Positions 14,899 to 21,413 of a stretch of DNA of 64,000 nucleotides are shown here, in pieces. How positions within the stretch are numbered: the first letter of the stretch is position 1; every line of letters starts with the position of its first letter. The position numbers and the translations under genes are program-made. Below the pieces are notes generated by a model. That model did no database searches, was not told where the DNA came from, and was given only the letters and a program-made list of their open reading frames with translations. Source of the stretch: a phage; the sequence record PZ386980.1. One strand, given 5' to 3'.

Positions 14899-15288
14899 TT
14901 AATCCAAAATATTATTAGGCATTGGTTGAACACTCACAAGTTCTTTAAAGAACTCAGTAGAGTCAGGCAATTTAACCATTTCCGGAGCATGCTTACTGAA
15001 TTTATGTTTACATTGACGGCATTTATATTCAAGCTCTGGTTTACGCCAGTTAATCAATTGAACTTGTTCAGTACCGCATTCAGGGCAATTAGGAACGTTT
15101 TTAGAAGCTCTTTCACGTCGTTCAACCATAGCCATAATAGCATCCCATGCTGGAGGTTTAAAATCTAAATCGTCGCAGCCGTGAATCTTTCCACGCATTT
15201 CCAAATCGTCTTCTTCACCAGCCATAATAATTTTAATTAGACTAGAATTACTTGAAGCTGCAATGTCTTCTAATAAACGCTTTTTCAT
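14899..15288 (-). CDS. Zinc-ribbon protein
   Basis: 129 aa; CPECG...x16...CRQCKHKF four-Cys ribbon. Confidence 0.55.
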
Positions 15289-16211
15289 TTCAATACCTCA
15301 ATAGCATTACGTAAACCATTTGCTTTGGCGGTTAAAGCCTTAAGAACTTTAGTATGCTCTTCAATCTGTTTTTCAACTTCAATCAAACGGGCACTGAGAT
15401 ATTCGCGTTCTTCTTTCATAGTATCATTTCCATGATTGGATTTTGGTGTAGGTTTAAATTCACTAGGGTCCTTTAATTTAATAACAAATTTAGTTTCAAA
15501 CAGTGAAAGACCATAATTCGTATTATCATCAAAGGATTTGACTACATCCATATCAGATAATAACACGCGCAAATTATAAGCCAAAGAACTAATAGTTTCA
15601 TTGTGTTTATTAGCTTCGCGTGGTTTCATATACGGAAGATTTTTATATATCTCATGCGGAGCGCAAACGATAATTGACAATTCAAATTGTCCATTCTGGG
15701 ACGATGGAGTGAATTTAGCCGTAACCCAGTCTTTTACATTCACATTAATAGTACGGTTATCACCATGACAAAACAGTCTACGAGAATGCTTAAAAAGCAT
15801 ATTCACGTTATTATTGAATTCGTGTGAAAATTCACTAGCAAATTTTTCTTTACTATCTTTAGAAAACCATTCTTCTAAATAAGTTCTTTTCACGTCGTTA
15901 ATAATATTAAATGTAACAACACTAGCATTTGATACATTAGTCTCAATGTAGCTTGGATACATAAATTTTTTAATATTATTAACAGCTATCACAGAAGATA
16001 GTAATCGGGAACGTTTGAACCACTCGAGCAAAGAACCAAGAGAATGTGAATACGCATTTTGTGTATCTTTACAAATATGGTTTTCCCATCCAATATAGTC
16101 TAAAAAATCACGAAGAATATTATTGATTACTTCTCTATGTCCTTTCTGATAATCACGATGTTTAGTAATAAGACTGTCAAAATAATCAATATAATGTTTA
16201 CGAGTTTTCAT
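15285..16211 (-). CDS. Uncharacterised protein, tandem paralog family member 1 (C-terminal coiled coil)
   Basis: 308 aa; N-terminus MKTRKHYIDYF resembles the two downstream paralogs; heptad-rich last ~45 aa. Confidence 0.6.
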   Translation of the reverse strand: MKTRKHYIDYFDSLITKHRDYQKGHREVINNILRDFLDYIGWENHICKDTQNAYSHSLGSLLEWFKRSRLLSSVIAVNNIKKFMYPSYIETNVSNASVVTFNIINDVKRTYLEEWFSKDSKEKFASEFSHEFNNNVNMLFKHSRRLFCHGDNRTINVNVKDWVTAKFTPSSQNGQFELSIIVCAPHEIYKNLPYMKPREANKHNETISSLAYNLRVLLSDMDVVKSFDDNTNYGLSLFETKFVIKLKDPSEFKPTPKSNHGNDTMKEEREYLSARLIEVEKQIEEHTKVLKALTAKANGLRNAIEVLK

Positions 16212-16265
16212 GTTCTTCTCACTTGGTTAATGATTTATACTCCGAGCCATCCTTGGCTTTAAATT

Positions 16266-17267
16266 TTACTTAATTAACTGTAAAGCTTGTTCCAGACGAT
16301 CAAGACGATTAACAGATTCTTCCCAAATCCTTTTAGCCTGCTCATATTCTTTCTGTGCTTTATTAGAAATTTCTAGAACTTCTTTATAAGCTTTTTCTAG
16401 TGCAATAACTTCTGGACGAATTTCTATCGGTTCAGGTGAATCATCAAGATTATCCATTAGTTCCTCAAGGGTAGTTTCTTCTTTAGGAGTATTCACAATT
16501 TCATCACATTTTTGTTGATAAATTTCTTTATCAGTAGGTGAGTACGCGCACTTTACTTCACGAAGACTAATTACAATTTTATATCCTTCCCAACCACCCA
16601 TATTTTTGAAAGGATATGTATGAATACTTTTTACAGTTTCCATACAATCCAAAGCCGTCTCTAATTGATGAGTTATAGTGCTAGCAATTGAGAAAAATTT
16701 ATTAATATTCTTTTGGTTAGCTTCTGGTGTAAAAAATTCGTAATTCACAAAAATAGCTACTTTATTTTTATCAAGCTCATATTCTTTTACGATAATCATA
16801 TCAGAAGCCAAAGGATGAATTTGACGATAATCGCCATAACATAATTTAGAAGCTGATTTTAGAATTTGTCCTTTAAAAAGTCTGAAATTGCTAATCCAAC
16901 GACGAGTAAAAATATTCTTAGGGTCTTCTTTGATATTAAGATGATAAGAATTAACATCACCGAACCAATTGTATCCTATTACACCTTTAGTTCGTTTAAT
17001 TTCTTTCCCAAAATTACCAAGAATATCCCGATTAACCAAATATGAAAGAAGACGAGACCCTTTAAAGATTATCTTAATATCATCTTTATCTACACGGCTA
17101 GAAATTTCACGAACTTCATGAATAAATTTACTGGAAGAAACAATACTTGCATCAATACTGCTGAGCCATTGATTGATAATAGAAAGAACAGCGTTCTGAC
17201 TAGACATGGGTTTAACTTTATCATCAATAACACTATTGAATGATTTGATATATTCGTTACGAGTCAT
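16266..17267 (-). CDS. Uncharacterised protein, tandem paralog family member 2
   Basis: Start moved to ATG at 17267 (GAGGAG Shine-Dalgarno; upstream ATG lies inside the promoter -10); MTRNEYIKSF N-terminus; C-terminal coiled coil. Confidence 0.6.
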   Translation of the reverse strand: MTRNEYIKSFNSVIDDKVKPMSSQNAVLSIINQWLSSIDASIVSSSKFIHEVREISSRVDKDDIKIIFKGSRLLSYLVNRDILGNFGKEIKRTKGVIGYNWFGDVNSYHLNIKEDPKNIFTRRWISNFRLFKGQILKSASKLCYGDYRQIHPLASDMIIVKEYELDKNKVAIFVNYEFFTPEANQKNINKFFSIASTITHQLETALDCMETVKSIHTYPFKNMGGWEGYKIVISLREVKCAYSPTDKEIYQQKCDEIVNTPKEETTLEELMDNLDDSPEPIEIRPEVIALEKAYKEVLEISNKAQKEYEQAKRIWEESVNRLDRLEQALQLIK

Positions 17268-17295
17268 AATAATCTCCTCAGTAGAAAGTAAGAAC

Positions 17296-17330
17296 ATTAT
17301 ACCACATCCTTGTGGTAAAGTAAACTAGTT
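17296..17330 (-). promoter_or_regulatory. T4-type early promoter
   Basis: Minus strand -35 GTTTAC, 17 nt spacer, -10 TATAAT; ~25 nt upstream of ATG 17267. Confidence 0.55.
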
Positions 17331-18350
17331 CAGTGCATTTAATGCATTGTTCAGTTTAGAACGTTGCTTCGTGAGATTTTTGACTTTTTCTTGTGCTTTT
17401 TCTAGCATCTTTTCAGCTTCTAACACTTCATTGGTCGCTTTAACGAGTTCATCATCTACTGCCTTGATAGACTTCTCAATCGCATCCGCGTGCCATTTTT
17501 CAACAGGTTTAAGACTCGGATTTTCAATAGGAAGAAAATTCACTTTATTGAATTTCCATGCATCCTTATTACCTGAACTATACATCCAAAATTTAGGATC
17601 GTTTGATGAGTAATTGGATAAATTTAAATTTAAGTTATCTTGCACTTCCTGCTTCTTCTCTTGCGTGACTTCGTCCTTTCTCAAAAAATCATATTTAAAT
17701 GAAACAATCATATCAAGTTCATATGTTGTTGTGTCTAATTTAAATCGTTCGAAATGCTGTGAAATCTTAGACTGAACAGCGGCAACAACATCCATATACT
17801 TAAATGCTTCTGTCAACTGTGATTTAAGGCATTCACAAATTGAAAGAGAATTTTTTGTATTAGGTTTAAAGCTAATTCGTGCAGTTCTATTATTTTCTTT
17901 TAATGGTCTTACTTCCATCTGAAGAGTATAACCATCAAATTTCAAGTTCTTTAAGTTAATATCAGAACCTTTTAATCGACTAGCAGTTGATAAAATTTGC
18001 TTTAATTGTCTACGGAACAGAGCAATAAATCTCCATTCAATACGATAATGATTTGGATTGAAAAATCCAGATGATAAATCGACCTTACTCTGACCAACAC
18101 CTTGAACAAATAGAGGATTTTTATAATCAATAGTTTTACAGAAATCGGTGAGCTGCTCACGAGCAGTCATTTGTGTAATATATCCCGCTTTACTAAAATG
18201 ACGTAACCATTCACTGCTATTCATATACTTAAAGTGAATGGAACTATTAACTCTATCAGGGTCTAAATTATTTTGGCACAAAAATGTCATAACATCACGA
18301 GTATAGCTGGCATTACGAACCATATCTTCAATTTGAGAACGAGTTTTCAT
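17325..18350 (-). CDS. Uncharacterised protein, tandem paralog family member 3
   Basis: 341 aa; MKTRSQIEDMV N-terminus; C-terminal coiled coil. Confidence 0.6.
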   Translation of the reverse strand: MKTRSQIEDMVRNASYTRDVMTFLCQNNLDPDRVNSSIHFKYMNSSEWLRHFSKAGYITQMTAREQLTDFCKTIDYKNPLFVQGVGQSKVDLSSGFFNPNHYRIEWRFIALFRRQLKQILSTASRLKGSDINLKNLKFDGYTLQMEVRPLKENNRTARISFKPNTKNSLSICECLKSQLTEAFKYMDVVAAVQSKISQHFERFKLDTTTYELDMIVSFKYDFLRKDEVTQEKKQEVQDNLNLNLSNYSSNDPKFWMYSSGNKDAWKFNKVNFLPIENPSLKPVEKWHADAIEKSIKAVDDELVKATNEVLEAEKMLEKAQEKVKNLTKQRSKLNNALNALN

Positions 18351-18358
18351 AGTGTTCC

Positions 18359-19264
18359 TTAAGATTTAAGTAAATCAACAATTTTAATTAATTTTTCACG
18401 CTCAGATTTAGCTTTATTACTCAATCCAGATAGTCTGAAAATTTCATCGTCATACTGTTGAATAGAAATATTCAGCTCTTCAATTTGCTTATTAAAATAA
18501 TCAATTTGCTCAGAATGTTTTTCGTTACTACGAACTGGTACAGGGTTTGTAGGCAATTTAGTTAAACTGGATTCATCCGGGCGATAAATTAAAATGCAAT
18601 TTGAACCAATCGGGCATTTAGCACCAGATGAATATTCTAACGTTCCAGCTTCTTTTAAAACTTCAAAAGCTAAACAGAGATGATGCCCCATATTAACATA
18701 ATCTGTAGAGTGAGCTCTGACGTAATAATCATCTCCACGAGTACTAAATTTAAAGCATTTAAGGTCTTCTGTATTATTAGTTTTAAAAATCATTTGTTTA
18801 TCTAGACCTTTAGCCAATCGAGCACCTAATGCTAATAATCGTCGTTGATTTTCCCACAAATCCGCAATCATTTGATCGAATGACAATTTCGGCATTAGTC
18901 GACCATAAAGGTCATATCCTTTATTATAATTGCGAAGAATTTCACTCGCGTTAATGCGAGACAATGCTCCAATTTTATTAAGGGCTTTCATGATGCGATT
19001 AGATAAACTCATTCCAGACCCATTTGTTCGCTGTAAATGTTTTTCTAATCCAAACCCAATATCAACTTTAAATTTATCTAAAATTTCAGCATGAACATCT
19101 CTGTCAATAACATTCAAATCCAAAGTTGGGTTAAATCTATGAAAAAATTTATCTGGCTCTCCACGACGAAATACAGTCCATTCATTCATCATTTTTTTAT
19201 TAACTAAAGATTTAATTACTGCATTGACATTATTAATTACTACTGACATATTTTTCTCACTCAA
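18359..19264 (-). CDS. Uncharacterised protein, tandem paralog family member 4 (more divergent)
   Basis: 301 aa; similar size and C-terminal coiled coil (EQIDYFNKQIEELNISIQQYDDEIFRL). Confidence 0.55.
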   Translation of the reverse strand: MSEKNMSVVINNVNAVIKSLVNKKMMNEWTVFRRGEPDKFFHRFNPTLDLNVIDRDVHAEILDKFKVDIGFGLEKHLQRTNGSGMSLSNRIMKALNKIGALSRINASEILRNYNKGYDLYGRLMPKLSFDQMIADLWENQRRLLALGARLAKGLDKQMIFKTNNTEDLKCFKFSTRGDDYYVRAHSTDYVNMGHHLCLAFEVLKEAGTLEYSSGAKCPIGSNCILIYRPDESSLTKLPTNPVPVRSNEKHSEQIDYFNKQIEELNISIQQYDDEIFRLSGLSNKAKSEREKLIKIVDLLKS

Positions 19265-19665: not shown

Positions 19666-19720
19666 AATAATCTCAATTAAAAGGGCTTAGAACCATTATA
19701 CCATCCTTGGTATAAAGCGG

Positions 19721-20248
19721 TTATGCGAGTACCGTCTTTAACCGTTCTTCAAACTTCCGAAGAGTATTCTGGCGTTCAGCTCTTTGCTTTTTGTAAGTTT
19801 CAATACGCTCTGAAATGAGATTGTATCGTTCATTTACTGTTTCTTTCATAAAATCAGGAATTTCACGAGAAGCTTTAATCTCGTCAAATTTATCAATAAC
19901 AGCTTGCTCTTCAGCAATTAAGTTATCATACATCAAAATATCTTTCTTGATGAACTCAATATCTTCTTGAGTTACACGAGATAACTTAGATGCTTTATCC
20001 TTTTTGTACTGTTCGTTAGTATCACGAGACCAGTGTAATGTACGATTTTTATTCGTATTCTTGTAAATTTCTACAATACCAATCTCATCGATAATAACGA
20101 TCCAATTCCAACGGGATTTGTAAATTTGTCCTCCATCAACAGTGATTTCACCACCGATTGAGACATCATTAAAGAACTTGCTTTGAGCTTCAGATTTAAA
20201 TTTACCATCATTGTAGTTTACCAAGTTGAAAATATCTTTAGCATTCAT
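19721..20248 (-). CDS. Hypothetical protein with charged C-terminal coiled coil
   Basis: 175 aa; GGAGGA Shine-Dalgarno; downstream of early promoter. Confidence 0.55.
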   Translation of the reverse strand: MNAKDIFNLVNYNDGKFKSEAQSKFFNDVSIGGEITVDGGQIYKSRWNWIVIIDEIGIVEIYKNTNKNRTLHWSRDTNEQYKKDKASKLSRVTQEDIEFIKKDILMYDNLIAEEQAVIDKFDEIKASREIPDFMKETVNERYNLISERIETYKKQRAERQNTLRKFEERLKTVLA

Positions 20249-20269: not shown

Positions 20270-20320
20270 TAGTTGTATAGTATCACAGAGGAACAGTCTT
20301 GTAAACCACTAAAAGAAACT
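20270..20320 (-). promoter_or_regulatory. T4-type early promoter with conserved leader
   Basis: -35 GTTTAC, 18 nt spacer, -10 TACTAT, then ACAACTATCAACTAC shared with promoters at 22410, 25980, 37672. Confidence 0.5.
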
Positions 20321-20693: not shown

Positions 20694-21413
20694 TTAGGAT
20701 TCTTCTAAATGTCTTTTCTGAAAAGTTGATACCATACTACGATACGGTTCATTTGGATATCCGTGTTTTATAGCTTCCTTTGTAAATTTTCTCCATCCAT
20801 ATTTAGTTTCTTTCCAAAGCTCGAATAATTCATCTTCATATTGCCATATAGTTAAATGAGAACGCTTTGCAGCTTTAATTCCATTAATATGCTTTTCTTT
20901 TACTACAGGATTGCTTAGTTTCTTTTTAATAATATTACTAACTTTTCTAACAAAAACTGGGTCCTTATATCGTTGCGAAGTTTTTATTGAAGTGTTTAAT
21001 TTAGCTTCCGGCGTGGATGTGACCTCTTTCATCTTTTTCTTCATATGCTGTATATGATTAGGATTTTTCCATAAATTTATAGAATGCTTTTTGCATTTTA
21101 TCCTAGTTTCATCTGCAACCTTTCCTCCTTCACCCCCGTATGACAGGTTAACACAGTTTTTTCCATATTTCAATTTACCTGCCATGATATATAATATTTC
21201 AGCTTGTACCATTTTATCATAATTATCAAAAACTTCTAAAACCGTTTTTGATAATATGTGGTCATTTGACACTTTTACACGTTCTATATAATTTCCACTA
21301 CCAACATACGAATCATTGATGTTATTAGTTATATGTCGACCATAATAGTATTTCTTAATACCTGTCTTTAAATTTAATATTTCAGTTTTATAGATAGTAA
21401 AATATTTTTTCAT
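20694..21413 (-). CDS. GIY-YIG homing endonuclease (Seg-like)
   Basis: 239 aa; N-terminal FTIYKTE...KKYYYGRH...SYVGSG GIY-YIG motifs; basic C-terminal half; ATGA overlap with upstream AAA ATPase gene. Confidence 0.7.
   Translation of the reverse strand: MKKYFTIYKTEILNLKTGIKKYYYGRHITNNINDSYVGSGNYIERVKVSNDHILSKTVLEVFDNYDKMVQAEILYIMAGKLKYGKNCVNLSYGGEGGKVADETRIKCKKHSINLWKNPNHIQHMKKKMKEVTSTPEAKLNTSIKTSQRYKDPVFVRKVSNIIKKKLSNPVVKEKHINGIKAAKRSHLTIWQYEDELFELWKETKYGWRKFTKEAIKHGYPNEPYRSMVSTFQKRHLEES

What the first reader, a model, noticed from the sequence alone, without database searches (positions are those of the whole stretch)
15285..19264. Array of four tandem paralogous ~300-340-aa proteins with C-terminal coiled coils
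Four consecutive minus-strand ORFs have similar sizes (308/333/341/301 aa). The first three share related N-termini (MKTRKHYIDYF / MTRNEYIKSF / MKTRSQIEDMV), and all four end in a ~45-aa heptad-rich charged helix. A tandem, diversifying family in an early accessory region is typical of host-takeover or anti-defence genes. An early promoter (17296..17330) sits inside the array, so members may be expressed independently.
Basis: seen in the sequence. Interest (0 to 1): 0.6.

Follow-up and report, generated by a model that had tools for sequence, protein, structure and literature searches.

The report
Tandem phage counter-defence paralog array
Four neighbouring early genes of a T4-like phage (nrdC.3 to nrdC.6) are very divergent copies of one phage-only protein, and because the T4 version of one copy is already known to disarm a bacterial immune enzyme (Dsr1), the other three become concrete candidates for further anti-immunity factors.

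Summary
The window is phage RB51, a T4-like Tequatrovirus.

- **nrdC.3 / nrdC.4:** clear paralogs (BLASTP E = 2e-5; hhalign 98%, E = 1e-13; same PHROG).
- **nrdC.5:** joins them at profile level only (hhalign 80%, E = 1.5e-5, collinear). It shares the N-terminal (K)TRxEYI motif and gives reciprocal best non-self HMM hits within the window.
- **nrdC.6:** has no sequence link to the others. Its AlphaFold model has the same order of elements as nrdC.4, and both models hit the same distant Foldseek targets.

All four have a roughly 240-residue alpha/beta body, a disordered linker and a roughly 45-residue heptad helix ending L-x-x-A-phi-x-phi-L-K. Relatives occur across many T4-like genera. Copy number varies from two to four, and natural deletions exist.

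The internal early promoter is real-looking. It is conserved across three genera and fits the published PeSL cassette.

T4 nrdC.5 (93% identical) counteracts the Dsr1 SIR2 defence (eLife 2022). So the anti-defence reading is supported for one member and inferred for the rest.

Gene-wide dN/dS stays below 1, but is 3–5 times that of neighbours for nrdC.3, nrdC.4 and nrdC.5.

This is a known kind of system with new candidate members, of moderate interest.

The parts
15285..16211 (-). nrdC.3, 308 aa. Youngest paralog, a duplicate of nrdC.4. Found in Tequatrovirus and one Mosigvirus and absent from Gaprivervirus and Dhakavirus. Occurs in classes at about 93-100%, 60% and 55% identity to the RB51 protein.
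   Evidence: phrog_1435; hhalign vs nrdC.4 98.1%, E = 1e-13
15288..15425 (-). C-terminal heptad helix of nrdC.3 (about residues 263-308), ending [10 protein letters not shown]
16212..16265 (-). nrdC.4-nrdC.3 spacer. Degenerate promoter-hairpin cassette (TTTAAA-18-TATAAA) with the hairpin GCCAAGGATGGC, followed by a Shine-Dalgarno.
16266..17267 (-). nrdC.4, 333 aa. AlphaFold model (pLDDT 84.5): helical N-terminus, alpha/beta body to about residue 245, disordered linker 260-283, helix 285-332.
16272..16415 (-). C-terminal helix of nrdC.4 (residues 285-332), ending RLEQALQLIK
17296..17324 (-). Early-type promoter in the nrdC.5-nrdC.4 spacer: (G)TTTACT, 17 nt, TATAAT, with TG upstream. The spacer holds the hairpin TACCACAAGGATGTGGTA (PeSL-type cassette).
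   Evidence: conserved in three genera; published consensus
17325..18350 (-). nrdC.5, 341 aa, Pfam DUF7235. Ortholog (93% identity) of T4 nrdC.5, the published Dsr1 counter-defence gene. The fastest-diverging member between genera (23-28%).
   Evidence: (405 bits)
17328..17492 (-). C-terminal heptad helix of nrdC.5 (about residues 287-341), ending KLNNALNALN. It has the strongest heptad score of the four.
18359..19249 (-). nrdC.6, 296 aa from ATG (301 aa from the TTG at 19264). No sequence link to the other three, but its AlphaFold model (pLDDT 77) has the same order of elements as nrdC.4 and hits the same distant structural relatives.
18365..18514 (-). C-terminal helices of nrdC.6 (residues 246-272 and 278-295), ending KLIKIVDLLKS
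20277..20305 (-). Promoter-like site (TTTACA-17-TACTAT, with TG) upstream of nrdC.8. Probable start of the unit nrdC.8-nrdC.7-nrdC.6-nrdC.5, because the gaps 7->6 and 6->5 are only 11 and 8 nt.
   Evidence: the transcription unit is inferred

Best explanation
**What it is.** nrdC.6, nrdC.5, nrdC.4 and nrdC.3 are four anciently to recently duplicated copies of one protein superfamily restricted to T4-like phages. Each copy has three parts:
- an alpha/beta body of about 240 residues, most variable in its second half;
- a flexible linker;
- a C-terminal amphipathic helix of about 45 residues with a conserved end.

**How it is expressed.** The genes are transcribed early, from a promoter upstream of nrdC.8 and from an internal promoter in front of nrdC.4.

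**What it most likely does.** The array is a battery of counter-defence proteins. nrdC.5 neutralises the Dsr1 SIR2 NADase, which is shown for the T4 ortholog. It probably does so by binding Dsr1 and keeping it from being switched on by its trigger, the major capsid protein (this step is inferred). The paralogs would use the same scaffold with different body surfaces against other host immune proteins (inferred). The conserved terminal helix would serve oligomerisation or a shared partner (inferred).

**How it changes.** The array grows and shrinks by recombination between the repeated promoter-hairpin cassettes and the homologous 5' ends of the genes. Natural variants show the losses. The original duplication is inferred.
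For: **Identity.** 100% DNA match to RB51, annotated nrdC.3 to nrdC.6.

**Paralogy of nrdC.3 and nrdC.4.**
- BLASTP E = 2e-5.
- Both fall in phrog_1435.
- hhalign gives 98.1%, E = 1e-13.

**nrdC.5.**
- hhalign against nrdC.3+4 gives 79.7%, E = 1.5e-5 over 248 collinear columns. Body-only gives E = 1.7e-4. Controls are at or below 2%.
- With the window's ORFs as the database, the best non-self hit of the nrdC.3+4 HMM is nrdC.5 (0.0058, next 0.32). The best non-self hit of the nrdC.5 HMM is nrdC.3 (0.0014).
- In a 1,856-sequence database with decoys, the top four non-self hits of the nrdC.5 HMM are Mineola-326, fHe-Yen9-313, nrdC.4 and nrdC.3, at 5e-3 to 1e-2. The best decoy is 0.42.
- Mineola-326 is itself a Foldseek hit of the nrdC.4 model (E = 1.9e-6) and sits at the same genomic position.
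- The N-terminal motif is shared.

**nrdC.6.**
- Its model has the same order of elements as nrdC.4. The secondary-structure order alignment gives z = 3.6, with 0 of 200 shuffles reaching it.
- The two models hit the same distant BFVD proteins: IME523, PM2, fHyAci03, Acj9, fHe-Yen9-01 and fPS-65. In Acj61 they hit adjacent accessions.

**Function.** T4 nrdC.5 alone rescues plating on dsr1 (PMC9391042). Dsr1 senses the major capsid protein through a TPR sensor (PMC12803255).

**Evolution.**
- Divergence is fast relative to neighbours.
- The variable region lies in the second half of the body and the linker, while the termini are conserved.
- Copy number is 4, 3 or 2 by genus.
- Natural losses occur in LYE-01, ACG-C40 and Ec_YwIITB1.
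- The LYE-01 junction lies at the shared ACTCGTAA of the paralogs' 5' ends.

**Promoter.**
Against: - No member other than nrdC.5 has any functional data. The nrdC.5 experiment was done with T4, not RB51.
- The mechanism of Dsr1 inhibition is unpublished in the searchable literature.
- nrdC.5 was not modelled, so its fold is inferred.
- Iterative searches linked nrdC.5 to nrdC.4 only at E about 1e-3. A reversed decoy family was recruited at the same level in one run, so that line of evidence is borderline.
- nrdC.6 has no significant sequence link. Its membership rests on two AlphaFold models of moderate confidence and on transitive Foldseek hits with TM 0.3-0.5. The two models could not be superposed directly.
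- Gene-wide dN/dS is below 1 everywhere, and nrdC.6 (0.08) behaves almost like a housekeeping neighbour.
- The deletion in the T4 clone rescued by nrdC.5 is not specified in the text or the held supplements. It is therefore unknown whether nrdC.5 acted without its paralogs.
Confidence: 0.6

Rival explanations
1. The four proteins are subunits of one hetero-oligomeric complex with a single function. They would be held together by their similar C-terminal helices, rather than acting as independent inhibitors with different targets.
For: - All four share the same terminal helix end motif, which occurs in no other ORF of the window.
- They are adjacent and apparently co-transcribed in two units.
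- The helix ends are among the most conserved parts of each family.
Against: - Copy number differs between genera (4, 3 or 2).
- Viable natural phages lack nrdC.4 (LYE-01). Others lack nrdC.5, nrdC.4 and nrdC.3 (ACG-C40) or have a broken nrdC.5 (Ec_YwIITB1).
- Plasmid-borne nrdC.5 alone restores plating on dsr1, although the state of the paralogs in that clone is unknown.
Confidence: 0.15
2. The paralogs are host-takeover or physiological accessory proteins unrelated to immunity. Possible roles are modulators of host metabolism, of nucleotide supply near the nrd genes, or of transcription. The Dsr1 effect of nrdC.5 would then be indirect, for example through NAD+ metabolism.
For: - The genes lie among nucleotide-metabolism genes (nrdC, nrdD, nrdG, tk).
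- Several phage countermeasures to NADase defences act metabolically, such as the NARP pathways.
- nrdC.6 is conserved like a housekeeping gene within Tequatrovirus.
Against: - No enzymatic domain or catalytic motif appears in Pfam, NCBIfam or PDB sequence searches.
- There is no CxxC motif, so the 'thioredoxin' label is name propagation.
- Rapid divergence and presence/absence variation are typical of host-specific interaction surfaces.
Confidence: 0.13
3. Only nrdC.3 and nrdC.4 are paralogs. nrdC.5 and nrdC.6 are unrelated genes that share size, position and a compositionally similar coiled coil by chance or by convergence.
For: - BLASTP finds nothing significant beyond nrdC.3 vs nrdC.4.
- The nrdC.6 profiles give at most 4% hhalign probability against the others.
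- The iterative nrdC.5 to nrdC.4 link enters at the same E-value as a decoy.
- Coiled coils inflate similarity scores.
Against: - Body-only hhalign, with the coiled coil removed, still gives E = 1.7e-4 for nrdC.3+4 vs nrdC.5. Controls give 0.03-0.8.
- Best non-self hits in the window are reciprocal.
- The N-terminal motif is shared.
- The nrdC.6 and nrdC.4 models share the order of elements and six distant Foldseek targets at E from 1e-7 to 5e-3.
- nrdC.8 also ends in a heptad helix but is never linked to the family.
Confidence: 0.1

Closest known systems
T4 NrdC.5 (anti-Dsr1 counter-defence gene; Srikant, Guegler and Laub, eLife 2022, PMC9391042)
   Same: The window's nrdC.5 is its ortholog: 93% identity, the same position between nrdC.6 and nrdC.4, and the same Pfam family DUF7235.
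   Different: Activity against Dsr1 was shown for the T4 allele only. The paper treats nrdC.5 as a single uncharacterised gene and does not describe its paralogy with nrdC.3, nrdC.4 and nrdC.6 or its architecture.
DSAD1, the SPbeta-encoded inhibitor of the DSR2 SIR2 defence (PMC10981675, PMC11087589 and others)
   Same: It is a functional analogue. It is a phage protein that silences a defence-associated sirtuin that would otherwise be switched on by a virion structural protein. I take it as the working model for how NrdC.5 may act.
   Different: The host, defence protein (DSR2, not Dsr1) and trigger (tail tube, not capsid) all differ. No sequence or fold relation was found or tested, and the binding mode of NrdC.5 is unknown.
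PeSL promoter-stem-loop cassettes and the hyperplastic regions of T4-type genomes (Arbiol et al. 2010, PMC2839356; Comeau et al. 2014, PMC4122927)
   Same: - The spacer before nrdC.4 fits the PST/T4 consensus TTTACW-N17-TAYWAT and has a stem-loop in the spacer.
- Related hairpins precede nrdC.3 and nrdC.7.
- The flanked genes vary in presence between phages.
   Different: - The stem sequence here (CCA..TGG around AGGA) is not the AGNA/TCNT form quoted for the PST pair.
- The one deletion junction I could map (LYE-01) lies just downstream of the cassette, in the homologous first codons, not in the hairpin itself.
Other clustered T4 counter-defence loci: the internal-protein locus (ipI, ipIII) and the dmd-tifA-adfA anti-toxin island (PMC9391042)
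   Same: These are also early or injected accessory genes in variable regions. They are dispensable on laboratory hosts, and each is needed on hosts with a particular defence.
   Different: As far as the cited text says, those loci hold unrelated small proteins. Here the cluster is one diverged paralog family of about 300-aa proteins with a common three-part architecture.
Phage tail terminator proteins (lambda gpU-like; e.g. 3fz2, 6tba, 8q01, 9oab)
   Different: - Z never reaches 8 and identity is 2-12%.
- Only about a third of the protein is covered.
- Generic alpha/beta folds (nitroreductases, ribosomal proteins) score almost as well.
- The proteins are early, non-virion and twice as long.

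Membership tests
Pfam DUF7235 (PF23882) | Score above the curated gathering cut-off (30 bits) | tested here: met
   nrdC.5 scores 405.3 bits, E = 2.5e-121, full length. The Gaprivervirus nrdC.5-like protein scores 436.6 bits.
Pfam DUF7235 (PF23882), applied to nrdC.3, nrdC.4 and nrdC.6 | Score above the curated gathering cut-off (30 bits) | tested here: not met
   nrdC.3 scores 11.8 bits, on the C-terminal helix only. nrdC.4 and nrdC.6 give no hit. They carry other precomputed accessions, PF26897 and PF26899, which the local Pfam copy lacks.
PHROG 1435 | Full-length match to the family profile | tested here: met
   nrdC.3 gives E = 6e-100 and nrdC.4 gives E = 8e-166, both end to end. nrdC.5 falls in phrog_2351 and nrdC.6 in phrog_2257.
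Orthologs of the T4 anti-Dsr1 gene nrdC.5 | High identity to T4 NrdC.5 and the same genomic position | tested here: met
   93% identity to the T4 protein. The order nrdC.6 - nrdC.5 - nrdC.4 is identical in T4 and RB51.
Orthologs of the T4 anti-Dsr1 gene nrdC.5 | Restores phage growth on cells expressing Dsr1 | not testable with these tools
   Shown for the T4 allele in PMC9391042. It needs a plating assay with the RB51 allele.
One structural superfamily comprising nrdC.3, nrdC.4, nrdC.5 and nrdC.6 | Common fold of the globular body | tested here: inconclusive
   - nrdC.4 and nrdC.6 were modelled (pLDDT 84.5 and 77). They share the order of elements (z = 3.6) and six distant Foldseek targets.
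- nrdC.3 is tied to nrdC.4 by sequence.
- nrdC.5 was not modelled and is tied only by profiles.
- No direct model-to-model superposition was possible.
Coiled-coil proteins | Heptad periodicity of hydrophobic residues in a long helix | tested here: met
   The heptad score of each C-terminus exceeds residue shuffles. Helices 285-332 (nrdC.4) and 246-295 (nrdC.6) appear in the models.
Coiled-coil proteins | Helices actually pair into an oligomer | not testable with these tools
   Only monomer predictions were available. This needs multimer prediction or SEC-MALS.
PeSL cassette (T4-type promoter-early stem-loop) | Promoter fitting TTTACW-N17-TAYWAT (PST/T4 group) | tested here: met
   TTTACT-17-TATAAT at 17324..17296. 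The consensus is quoted from PMC4122927.
PeSL cassette (T4-type promoter-early stem-loop) | Stem-loop associated with the promoter | tested here: met
   A 7-bp hairpin, UACCACAAGGAUGUGGUA, lies in the spacer. Its folding energy is not exceptional against shuffles (z = -0.96). The stem covaries between loci: CCAC/GTGG, GCCA/TGGC, ACCA/TGGT and TCCA/TGGA.
PeSL cassette (T4-type promoter-early stem-loop) | Mediates gain or loss of the flanked genes by recombination | tested here: inconclusive
   LYE-01 lost nrdC.4 and joins the nrdC.4 cassette to the nrdC.3 body. The crossover maps to the shared ACTCGTAA in the first codons, not to the hairpin.
Thioredoxin / glutaredoxin (the label these ORFs carry in many GenBank records) | Thioredoxin-fold domain with a CxxC active site | tested here: not met
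   No Pfam thioredoxin or glutaredoxin hit. None of the four has CxxC, whereas true NrdC has it at residue 14.

The most novel reading that the evidence does not exclude
The family descends from a virion-type fold resembling tail terminators. It would have been re-deployed as early-expressed, oligomeric look-alikes of phage structural proteins. These would occupy, without activating, the shape-sensing receptors of bacterial immunity, such as the TPR sensor that Dsr1 shares with Avs7, and perhaps terminator- or capsid-sensing Avs proteins. Each paralog would be tuned to a different receptor. The coiled coil would supply the multivalency of an assembled virion surface.
Probability: 0.1. Interest if true: 0.8.

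Novelty: new member of a known kind. Interest (0 to 1): 0.5.

Why it matters
T4 is the reference phage, yet most of its roughly 130 accessory genes have no known function. This analysis shows that the one recently assigned gene, nrdC.5 (anti-Dsr1), has three neighbours built on the same plan, with relatives in T4-like phages of Klebsiella, Acinetobacter, Yersinia, Serratia, Pectobacterium and others.

That turns three orphan genes into specific, cheap-to-test candidates for new counter-defence factors. It also suggests a modular design, with a variable body on a constant oligomerising helix, that could be used to map which bacterial immune systems limit therapeutic T4-like phages.

As a side result, it gives a worked natural example (LYE-01) of how such arrays contract. 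It also flags a widespread 'thioredoxin' misannotation.

Tried and rejected
**1. Plain pairwise BLASTP** is significant only for nrdC.3 vs nrdC.4. On its own it is insufficient for the family claim.

**2. Iterative jackhmmer on a local database.**
- The first run was contaminated by a natural nrdC.5::nrdC.3 fusion protein (P0224) that could bridge the families.
- After removing it, the families still merged with no decoys.
- In the body-only version one query recruited 79 reversed decoys. The real nrdC.5 to nrdC.4 step entered at the same E of about 1e-3. I therefore do not count iteration as independent proof.

**3. Exhaustive HMMER search with an nrdC.5 profile** found only 13 representatives among 1.84 billion proteins. 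It added two useful distant members but no bridge to the other families.

**4. P0230** carries the nrdC.5 helix on an unrelated N-terminus and looked like a natural body swap. Its N-terminal part is absent from deposited phages, so I dropped it as unverified and possibly an assembly chimera.

**5. P0224 and ACG-C40** were considered as in-register paralog recombinants. Both are out-of-register deletions.

**6. Sequence searches of PDB and NCBIfam** gave only noise.

**7. The deletion extent in the T4 evo 3 clone** was sought in the paper and its supplements and not found.

**8. The hairpin motif CCAAGGATGG** is not statistically enriched window-wide (4 matches against 1.9 expected; 16 of 100 shuffles reach 4). 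The hairpin energies are also unexceptional. The case for the cassette rests on position, conservation and the published consensus.

**9. Gene-wide positive selection** is rejected, because every dN/dS is below 1.

**Not run:** PADLOC.

Full report
**Identity of the region.** The 3,980 bases are 100% identical to Enterobacteria phage RB51 (FJ839693), a T4-like Tequatrovirus, where the four ORFs are annotated nrdC.3, nrdC.4, nrdC.5 and nrdC.6. 462 deposited phage genomes cover at least 80% of the stretch at 90% identity or more. The neighbouring 87-aa ORF is the thioredoxin NrdC. All genes here lie on the minus strand, so transcription runs nrdC.8, nrdC.7, nrdC.6, nrdC.5, nrdC.4, nrdC.3, nrdC.2, nrdC.1, nrdC.

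**The observation.** Two starts need comment.
- The mechanical 343-aa form of nrdC.4 begins at an ATG that lies inside the TATAAT of the upstream promoter. The 333-aa form follows a GAGGAG Shine-Dalgarno and is the real one.
- nrdC.6 is 296 aa from the ATG at 19249, as in nearly all database homologs, rather than 301 aa from the TTG.

**Are they paralogs? nrdC.3 and nrdC.4.** Yes, without doubt. BLASTP gives E = 2e-5 at 24% identity over 266 residues. Both match phrog_1435 end to end. hhalign of the family alignments gives 98.1% probability and E = 1e-13.

**nrdC.5.** This gene is Pfam DUF7235 (405 bits) and is not linked to the others by BLAST (best 0.045). Five lines of evidence at profile level agree.
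- hhalign of nrdC.3+4 against an nrdC.5 alignment, enriched with distant members from the exhaustive search, gives 79.7% and E = 1.5e-5 over 248 collinear columns running to both C-termini. With the coiled coils cut off it still gives E = 1.7e-4. Six control comparisons with neighbouring genes stay at or below 2%.
- Using the window's own 131 long ORFs plus reversed decoys as the database, the best non-self hit of the nrdC.3+4 HMM is nrdC.5 (0.0058, next 0.32). The best non-self hit of the nrdC.5 HMM is nrdC.3 (0.0014).
- In a larger local database, the top four non-self hits of the nrdC.5 HMM are Mineola-326, fHe-Yen9-313, nrdC.4 and nrdC.3, at 5e-3 to 1e-2. The best decoy is 0.42.
- Mineola-326 is a 326-aa protein of Klebsiella phage Mineola that sits immediately upstream of the nrdC.2-like gene. 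It matches DUF7235 in its body at E = 0.005. It is also a Foldseek hit of the nrdC.4 model at E = 1.9e-6.
M1, T2, R3, E5, Y6 and I7 are invariant in the nrdC.4 family. M1, T3, R4 and E8 are invariant in the nrdC.5 family. Distant nrdC.5-like proteins read MNIKTRKEYS or MITREEFIAS.

Against this stands a failed control. Iterative searches merged the families with no decoys, but the first cross-family step entered at about 1e-3. In one body-only run a reversed decoy family entered at the same level. I treat iteration as non-decisive and put nrdC.5 membership at roughly 85%.

**nrdC.6.** It shows no significant sequence similarity to the other three. Its AlphaFold2 model (pLDDT 77, pTM 0.65) nevertheless repeats the layout of the nrdC.4 model (pLDDT 84.5, pTM 0.69). 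The shared order of elements is:
- N-terminal helices;
- short strands;
- a helix-helix-short-helix unit (119-148 in nrdC.4, 124-151 in nrdC.6);
- a beta-hairpin (158-174 vs 166-179);
- a long helix (185-208 vs 187-200);
- a second hairpin (212-235 vs 205-222);
- a low-confidence linker;
- a terminal helix (285-332 vs 246-295).

A crude alignment of the two secondary-structure strings beats all 200 shuffles of element order (z = 3.6). More objectively, Foldseek searches of the two models against BFVD return the same distant proteins at 9-19% identity. The table gives the E-values.

| BFVD target | nrdC.4 model | nrdC.6 model |
|---|---|---|
| Enterobacter phage IME523 | 8.5e-8 | 5.9e-7 |
| Pectobacterium phage PM2 | 2.8e-7 | 8.9e-7 |
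| Acinetobacter phage fHyAci03 | 8.9e-7 | 2.2e-6 |
| Acinetobacter phage Acj9 | 1.5e-6 | 8.6e-5 |
| Yersinia phage fHe-Yen9-01 | 2.6e-5 | 6.5e-4 |
| Tequatrovirus fPS-65, 308 aa (length of nrdC.3) | 1.9e-7 | 4.9e-3 |

In Acj61 the two models hit the consecutive accessions E5E4A1 and E5E4A2. The nrdC.6 HMM's best non-self hit is the 292-aa fHe-Yen9-01 protein (4.5e-3, best decoy 1.3), which in turn recruits nrdC.3. I could not superpose the two models directly, and TM-scores to the shared targets are modest (0.3-0.5). I put nrdC.6 membership at about 80-85%.

**Common architecture.** Each protein has a body of about 240 residues, a disordered linker and a C-terminal helix of about 45 residues.
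- Heptad periodicity of the C-termini exceeds residue shuffles in all four: 0, 16, 0 and 0 of 500 shuffles reach the observed score.
- The helices end alike: [30 protein letters not shown] and KLIKIVDLLKS.
- The distant relatives end similarly: KLQESLRTLK, NLKTAMDLL and AFIRALTALDAI.
- A regular expression written after the fact finds this end in exactly these four of 140 ORFs.
- Within each family the first 20 residues and the extreme C-terminus are the best conserved. The stretch from about residue 160 to 280 is the most variable.

**Distribution and dynamics.** tblastn finds nrdC.3 in 654, nrdC.4 in 554, nrdC.5 in 582 and nrdC.6 in 742 phage records, out of about 1,280 that carry NrdC.

Copy number depends on the genus.
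- Tequatrovirus: 6-5-4-3.
- Gaprivervirus and Dhakavirus: 6, a small ORF, a 5-like gene, then 4.
- One Mosigvirus: a 6-like and a 3-like gene.

Identity to RB51 between genera:

| Gene | Identity to RB51 |
|---|---|
| NrdC | 83-91% |
| nrdC.10 | 76-78% |
| nrdC.8 | 67-85% |
| nrdC.6 | 34-51% |
| nrdC.4 | 38-53% |
| nrdC.5 | 22-28% |

Within Tequatrovirus, nrdC.3 occurs at about 93-100% or about 60% identity. A 55% class occurs where I could check it in a Mosigvirus.

dN/dS within Tequatrovirus:

| Gene | dN/dS |
|---|---|
| Neighbours | 0.03-0.06 |
| nrdC.6 | 0.08 |
| nrdC.5 | 0.17 |
| nrdC.4 | 0.19 |
| nrdC.3 | 0.26 |

All four genes are therefore kept by selection. Three of them change 3-5 times faster at the protein level, and none shows gene-wide positive selection.

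Natural losses occur.
- ACG-C40 has an out-of-frame deletion from early nrdC.5 to late nrdC.3.
- Ec_YwIITB1 has a broken nrdC.5.
- LYE-01 lacks nrdC.4.
- In LYE-01 the nrdC.3 body follows the complete nrdC.4-type promoter, Shine-Dalgarno and ATG. The switch lies at the ACTCGTAA that both paralogs share in codons 2-4. This is an in-register crossover between the homologous 5' ends, the reverse of a duplication.

**Promoter.** Between the nrdC.5 stop and the nrdC.4 start lies GTTTACTTTACCACAAGGATGTGGTATAATG. The two hexamers and their spacing are conserved in all Tequatrovirus, Gaprivervirus and Dhakavirus loci examined, while the neighbouring bases differ. It fits the consensus TTTACW-N17-TAYWAT published for PeSL cassettes of the PST/T4 group (PMC4122927). 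It also contains a 7-bp hairpin in the spacer. Related hairpins (GCCAAGGATGGC, ACCAAGGATGGT, and TCCAAGGATGGA in other genera) precede nrdC.3 and nrdC.7. Within this window they occur only in this array. Their folding energies are unremarkable. The gaps nrdC.7-nrdC.6 and nrdC.6-nrdC.5 are 11 and 8 nt. I therefore infer two units: nrdC.8 to nrdC.5 from the site at 20305..20277, and nrdC.4 onward from the internal promoter.

**Function.** Srikant, Guegler and Laub (eLife 2022, PMC9391042) found that an evolved T4 clone with compensatory deletions no longer plated on ECOR17. Deleting dsr1 from ECOR17 restored plating, and cloned dsr1 protected MG1655 against the clone. [quoted passage not shown]

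A 2026 preprint reports that the TPR sensor of E. coli Dsr1, shared with Avs7, is triggered by the phage major capsid protein (PMC12803255). I found no paper on how NrdC.5 works or on its paralogs. A 2026 paper still calls DSR1 poorly characterised.

By analogy with DSAD1 and DSR2, I propose that NrdC.5 binds Dsr1 and prevents its activation. I further propose that the paralogs apply the same scaffold to other immune proteins. Both steps are inference.

**Annotation note.** Many GenBank records label these four genes 'thioredoxin'. None has a CxxC motif or a thioredoxin-domain hit. The label comes from the gene names.

**Verdict.**
- **Already known:** the genes themselves, the anti-Dsr1 role of T4 nrdC.5, the grouping of nrdC.3 with nrdC.4 in PHROGs, and PeSL cassettes.
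- **Added here:**
  - evidence that all four genes are one diverged family with a shared three-part architecture;
  - the finding that the family extends by structure across many T4-like genera;
  - a picture of how it varies and contracts in nature.

The paralogs of a proven counter-defence gene are good, testable candidates for further counter-defence functions. I rate it a new member of a known kind, with moderate interest (0.5).

Noticed in passing
L026:4925-5010 (Escherichia phage LYE-01), compared with window 17255-17340 and 16200-16280: LYE-01 lacks nrdC.4. Its nrdC.3 gene carries the complete nrdC.4-type promoter, Shine-Dalgarno and ATG. The junction lies at the ACTCGTAA shared by codons 2-4 of both paralogs, which makes it an in-register crossover between paralog 5' ends.
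   Followed up: yes
L020:4802-5213 (phage vB_EcoM_ACG-C40); L027:3938-4779 (Ec_YwIITB1); protein P0224: Further natural damage to the array. ACG-C40 has an out-of-frame deletion from about codon 68 of nrdC.5 to about codon 240 of nrdC.3. Ec_YwIITB1 has nrdC.5 split into 180-aa and 86-aa ORFs. P0224 is a metagenomic ORF fusing nrdC.5 residues 145-273 to nrdC.3-like residues 134-308.
   Followed up: yes
window 20694-21413 (-): A 239-aa ORF lies between nrdC.9 and nrdC.10, and its homolog is annotated as a homing endonuclease in a related phage. It is present in RB51 and two related loci but absent at this position in T4 and three others. This is a presence/absence polymorphism typical of a mobile endonuclease gene.
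   Followed up: partly
window 19721-20248 (-), nrdC.8: This 175-aa protein two genes upstream also ends in a strong heptad helix (score 0.76). No profile or iterative search links it to the family, and it is much better conserved between genera (67-85%).
   Followed up: partly
window 16247-16256, about 17303-17316, and 19701-19710 (-): The short hairpin CCA(C)AAGGATG(T)GG sits in or next to the promoter spacers before nrdC.3, nrdC.4 and nrdC.7, and is found nowhere else in the window in this form. The stems differ by paired changes between spacers and genera (CCAC/GTGG, GCCA/TGGC, ACCA/TGGT, TCCA/TGGA). Its role is unknown, beyond fitting the PeSL description.
   Followed up: partly
GenBank records under hits H5, H7, H8, H10 and others; clusters P0064, P0070, P0174: nrdC.3 to nrdC.6 are widely annotated as 'thioredoxin', in some records six times in a row. 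The proteins have no CxxC motif and no thioredoxin-domain match, so the label is propagated from the gene names.
   Followed up: yes
window 14899-15288 (-), nrdC.2: nrdC.2 is 129 aa in RB51 but 104 aa in T4. It has a zinc-ribbon-like CxxC pair region. Its last 20 residues match a family that is a separate small ORF ('hydrolase') in Klebsiella phage Mineola, which suggests a gene fusion or read-through in RB51.
   Followed up: no
protein P0230 (173 aa, from the exhaustive search): It carries the exact 53-residue C-terminal helix of RB51 NrdC.5 on an N-terminal part that matches nothing in deposited phages. It is either a natural body swap or an assembly chimera.
   Followed up: partly
L019:6253-6666 (Mosigvirus vB_EcoM_G2285): The nrdC.7-like membrane protein gene lies between nrdC.2 and nrdC in this phage, rather than upstream of nrdC.6 as in Tequatrovirus. 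This shows gene-order shuffling within the same variable region.
   Followed up: no
P0064 (Shigella phage Sf25, 378 aa): This nrdC.6 homolog is about 80 residues longer at the N-terminus than all others. It may be a fusion with the upstream gene or a mis-called start.
   Followed up: no
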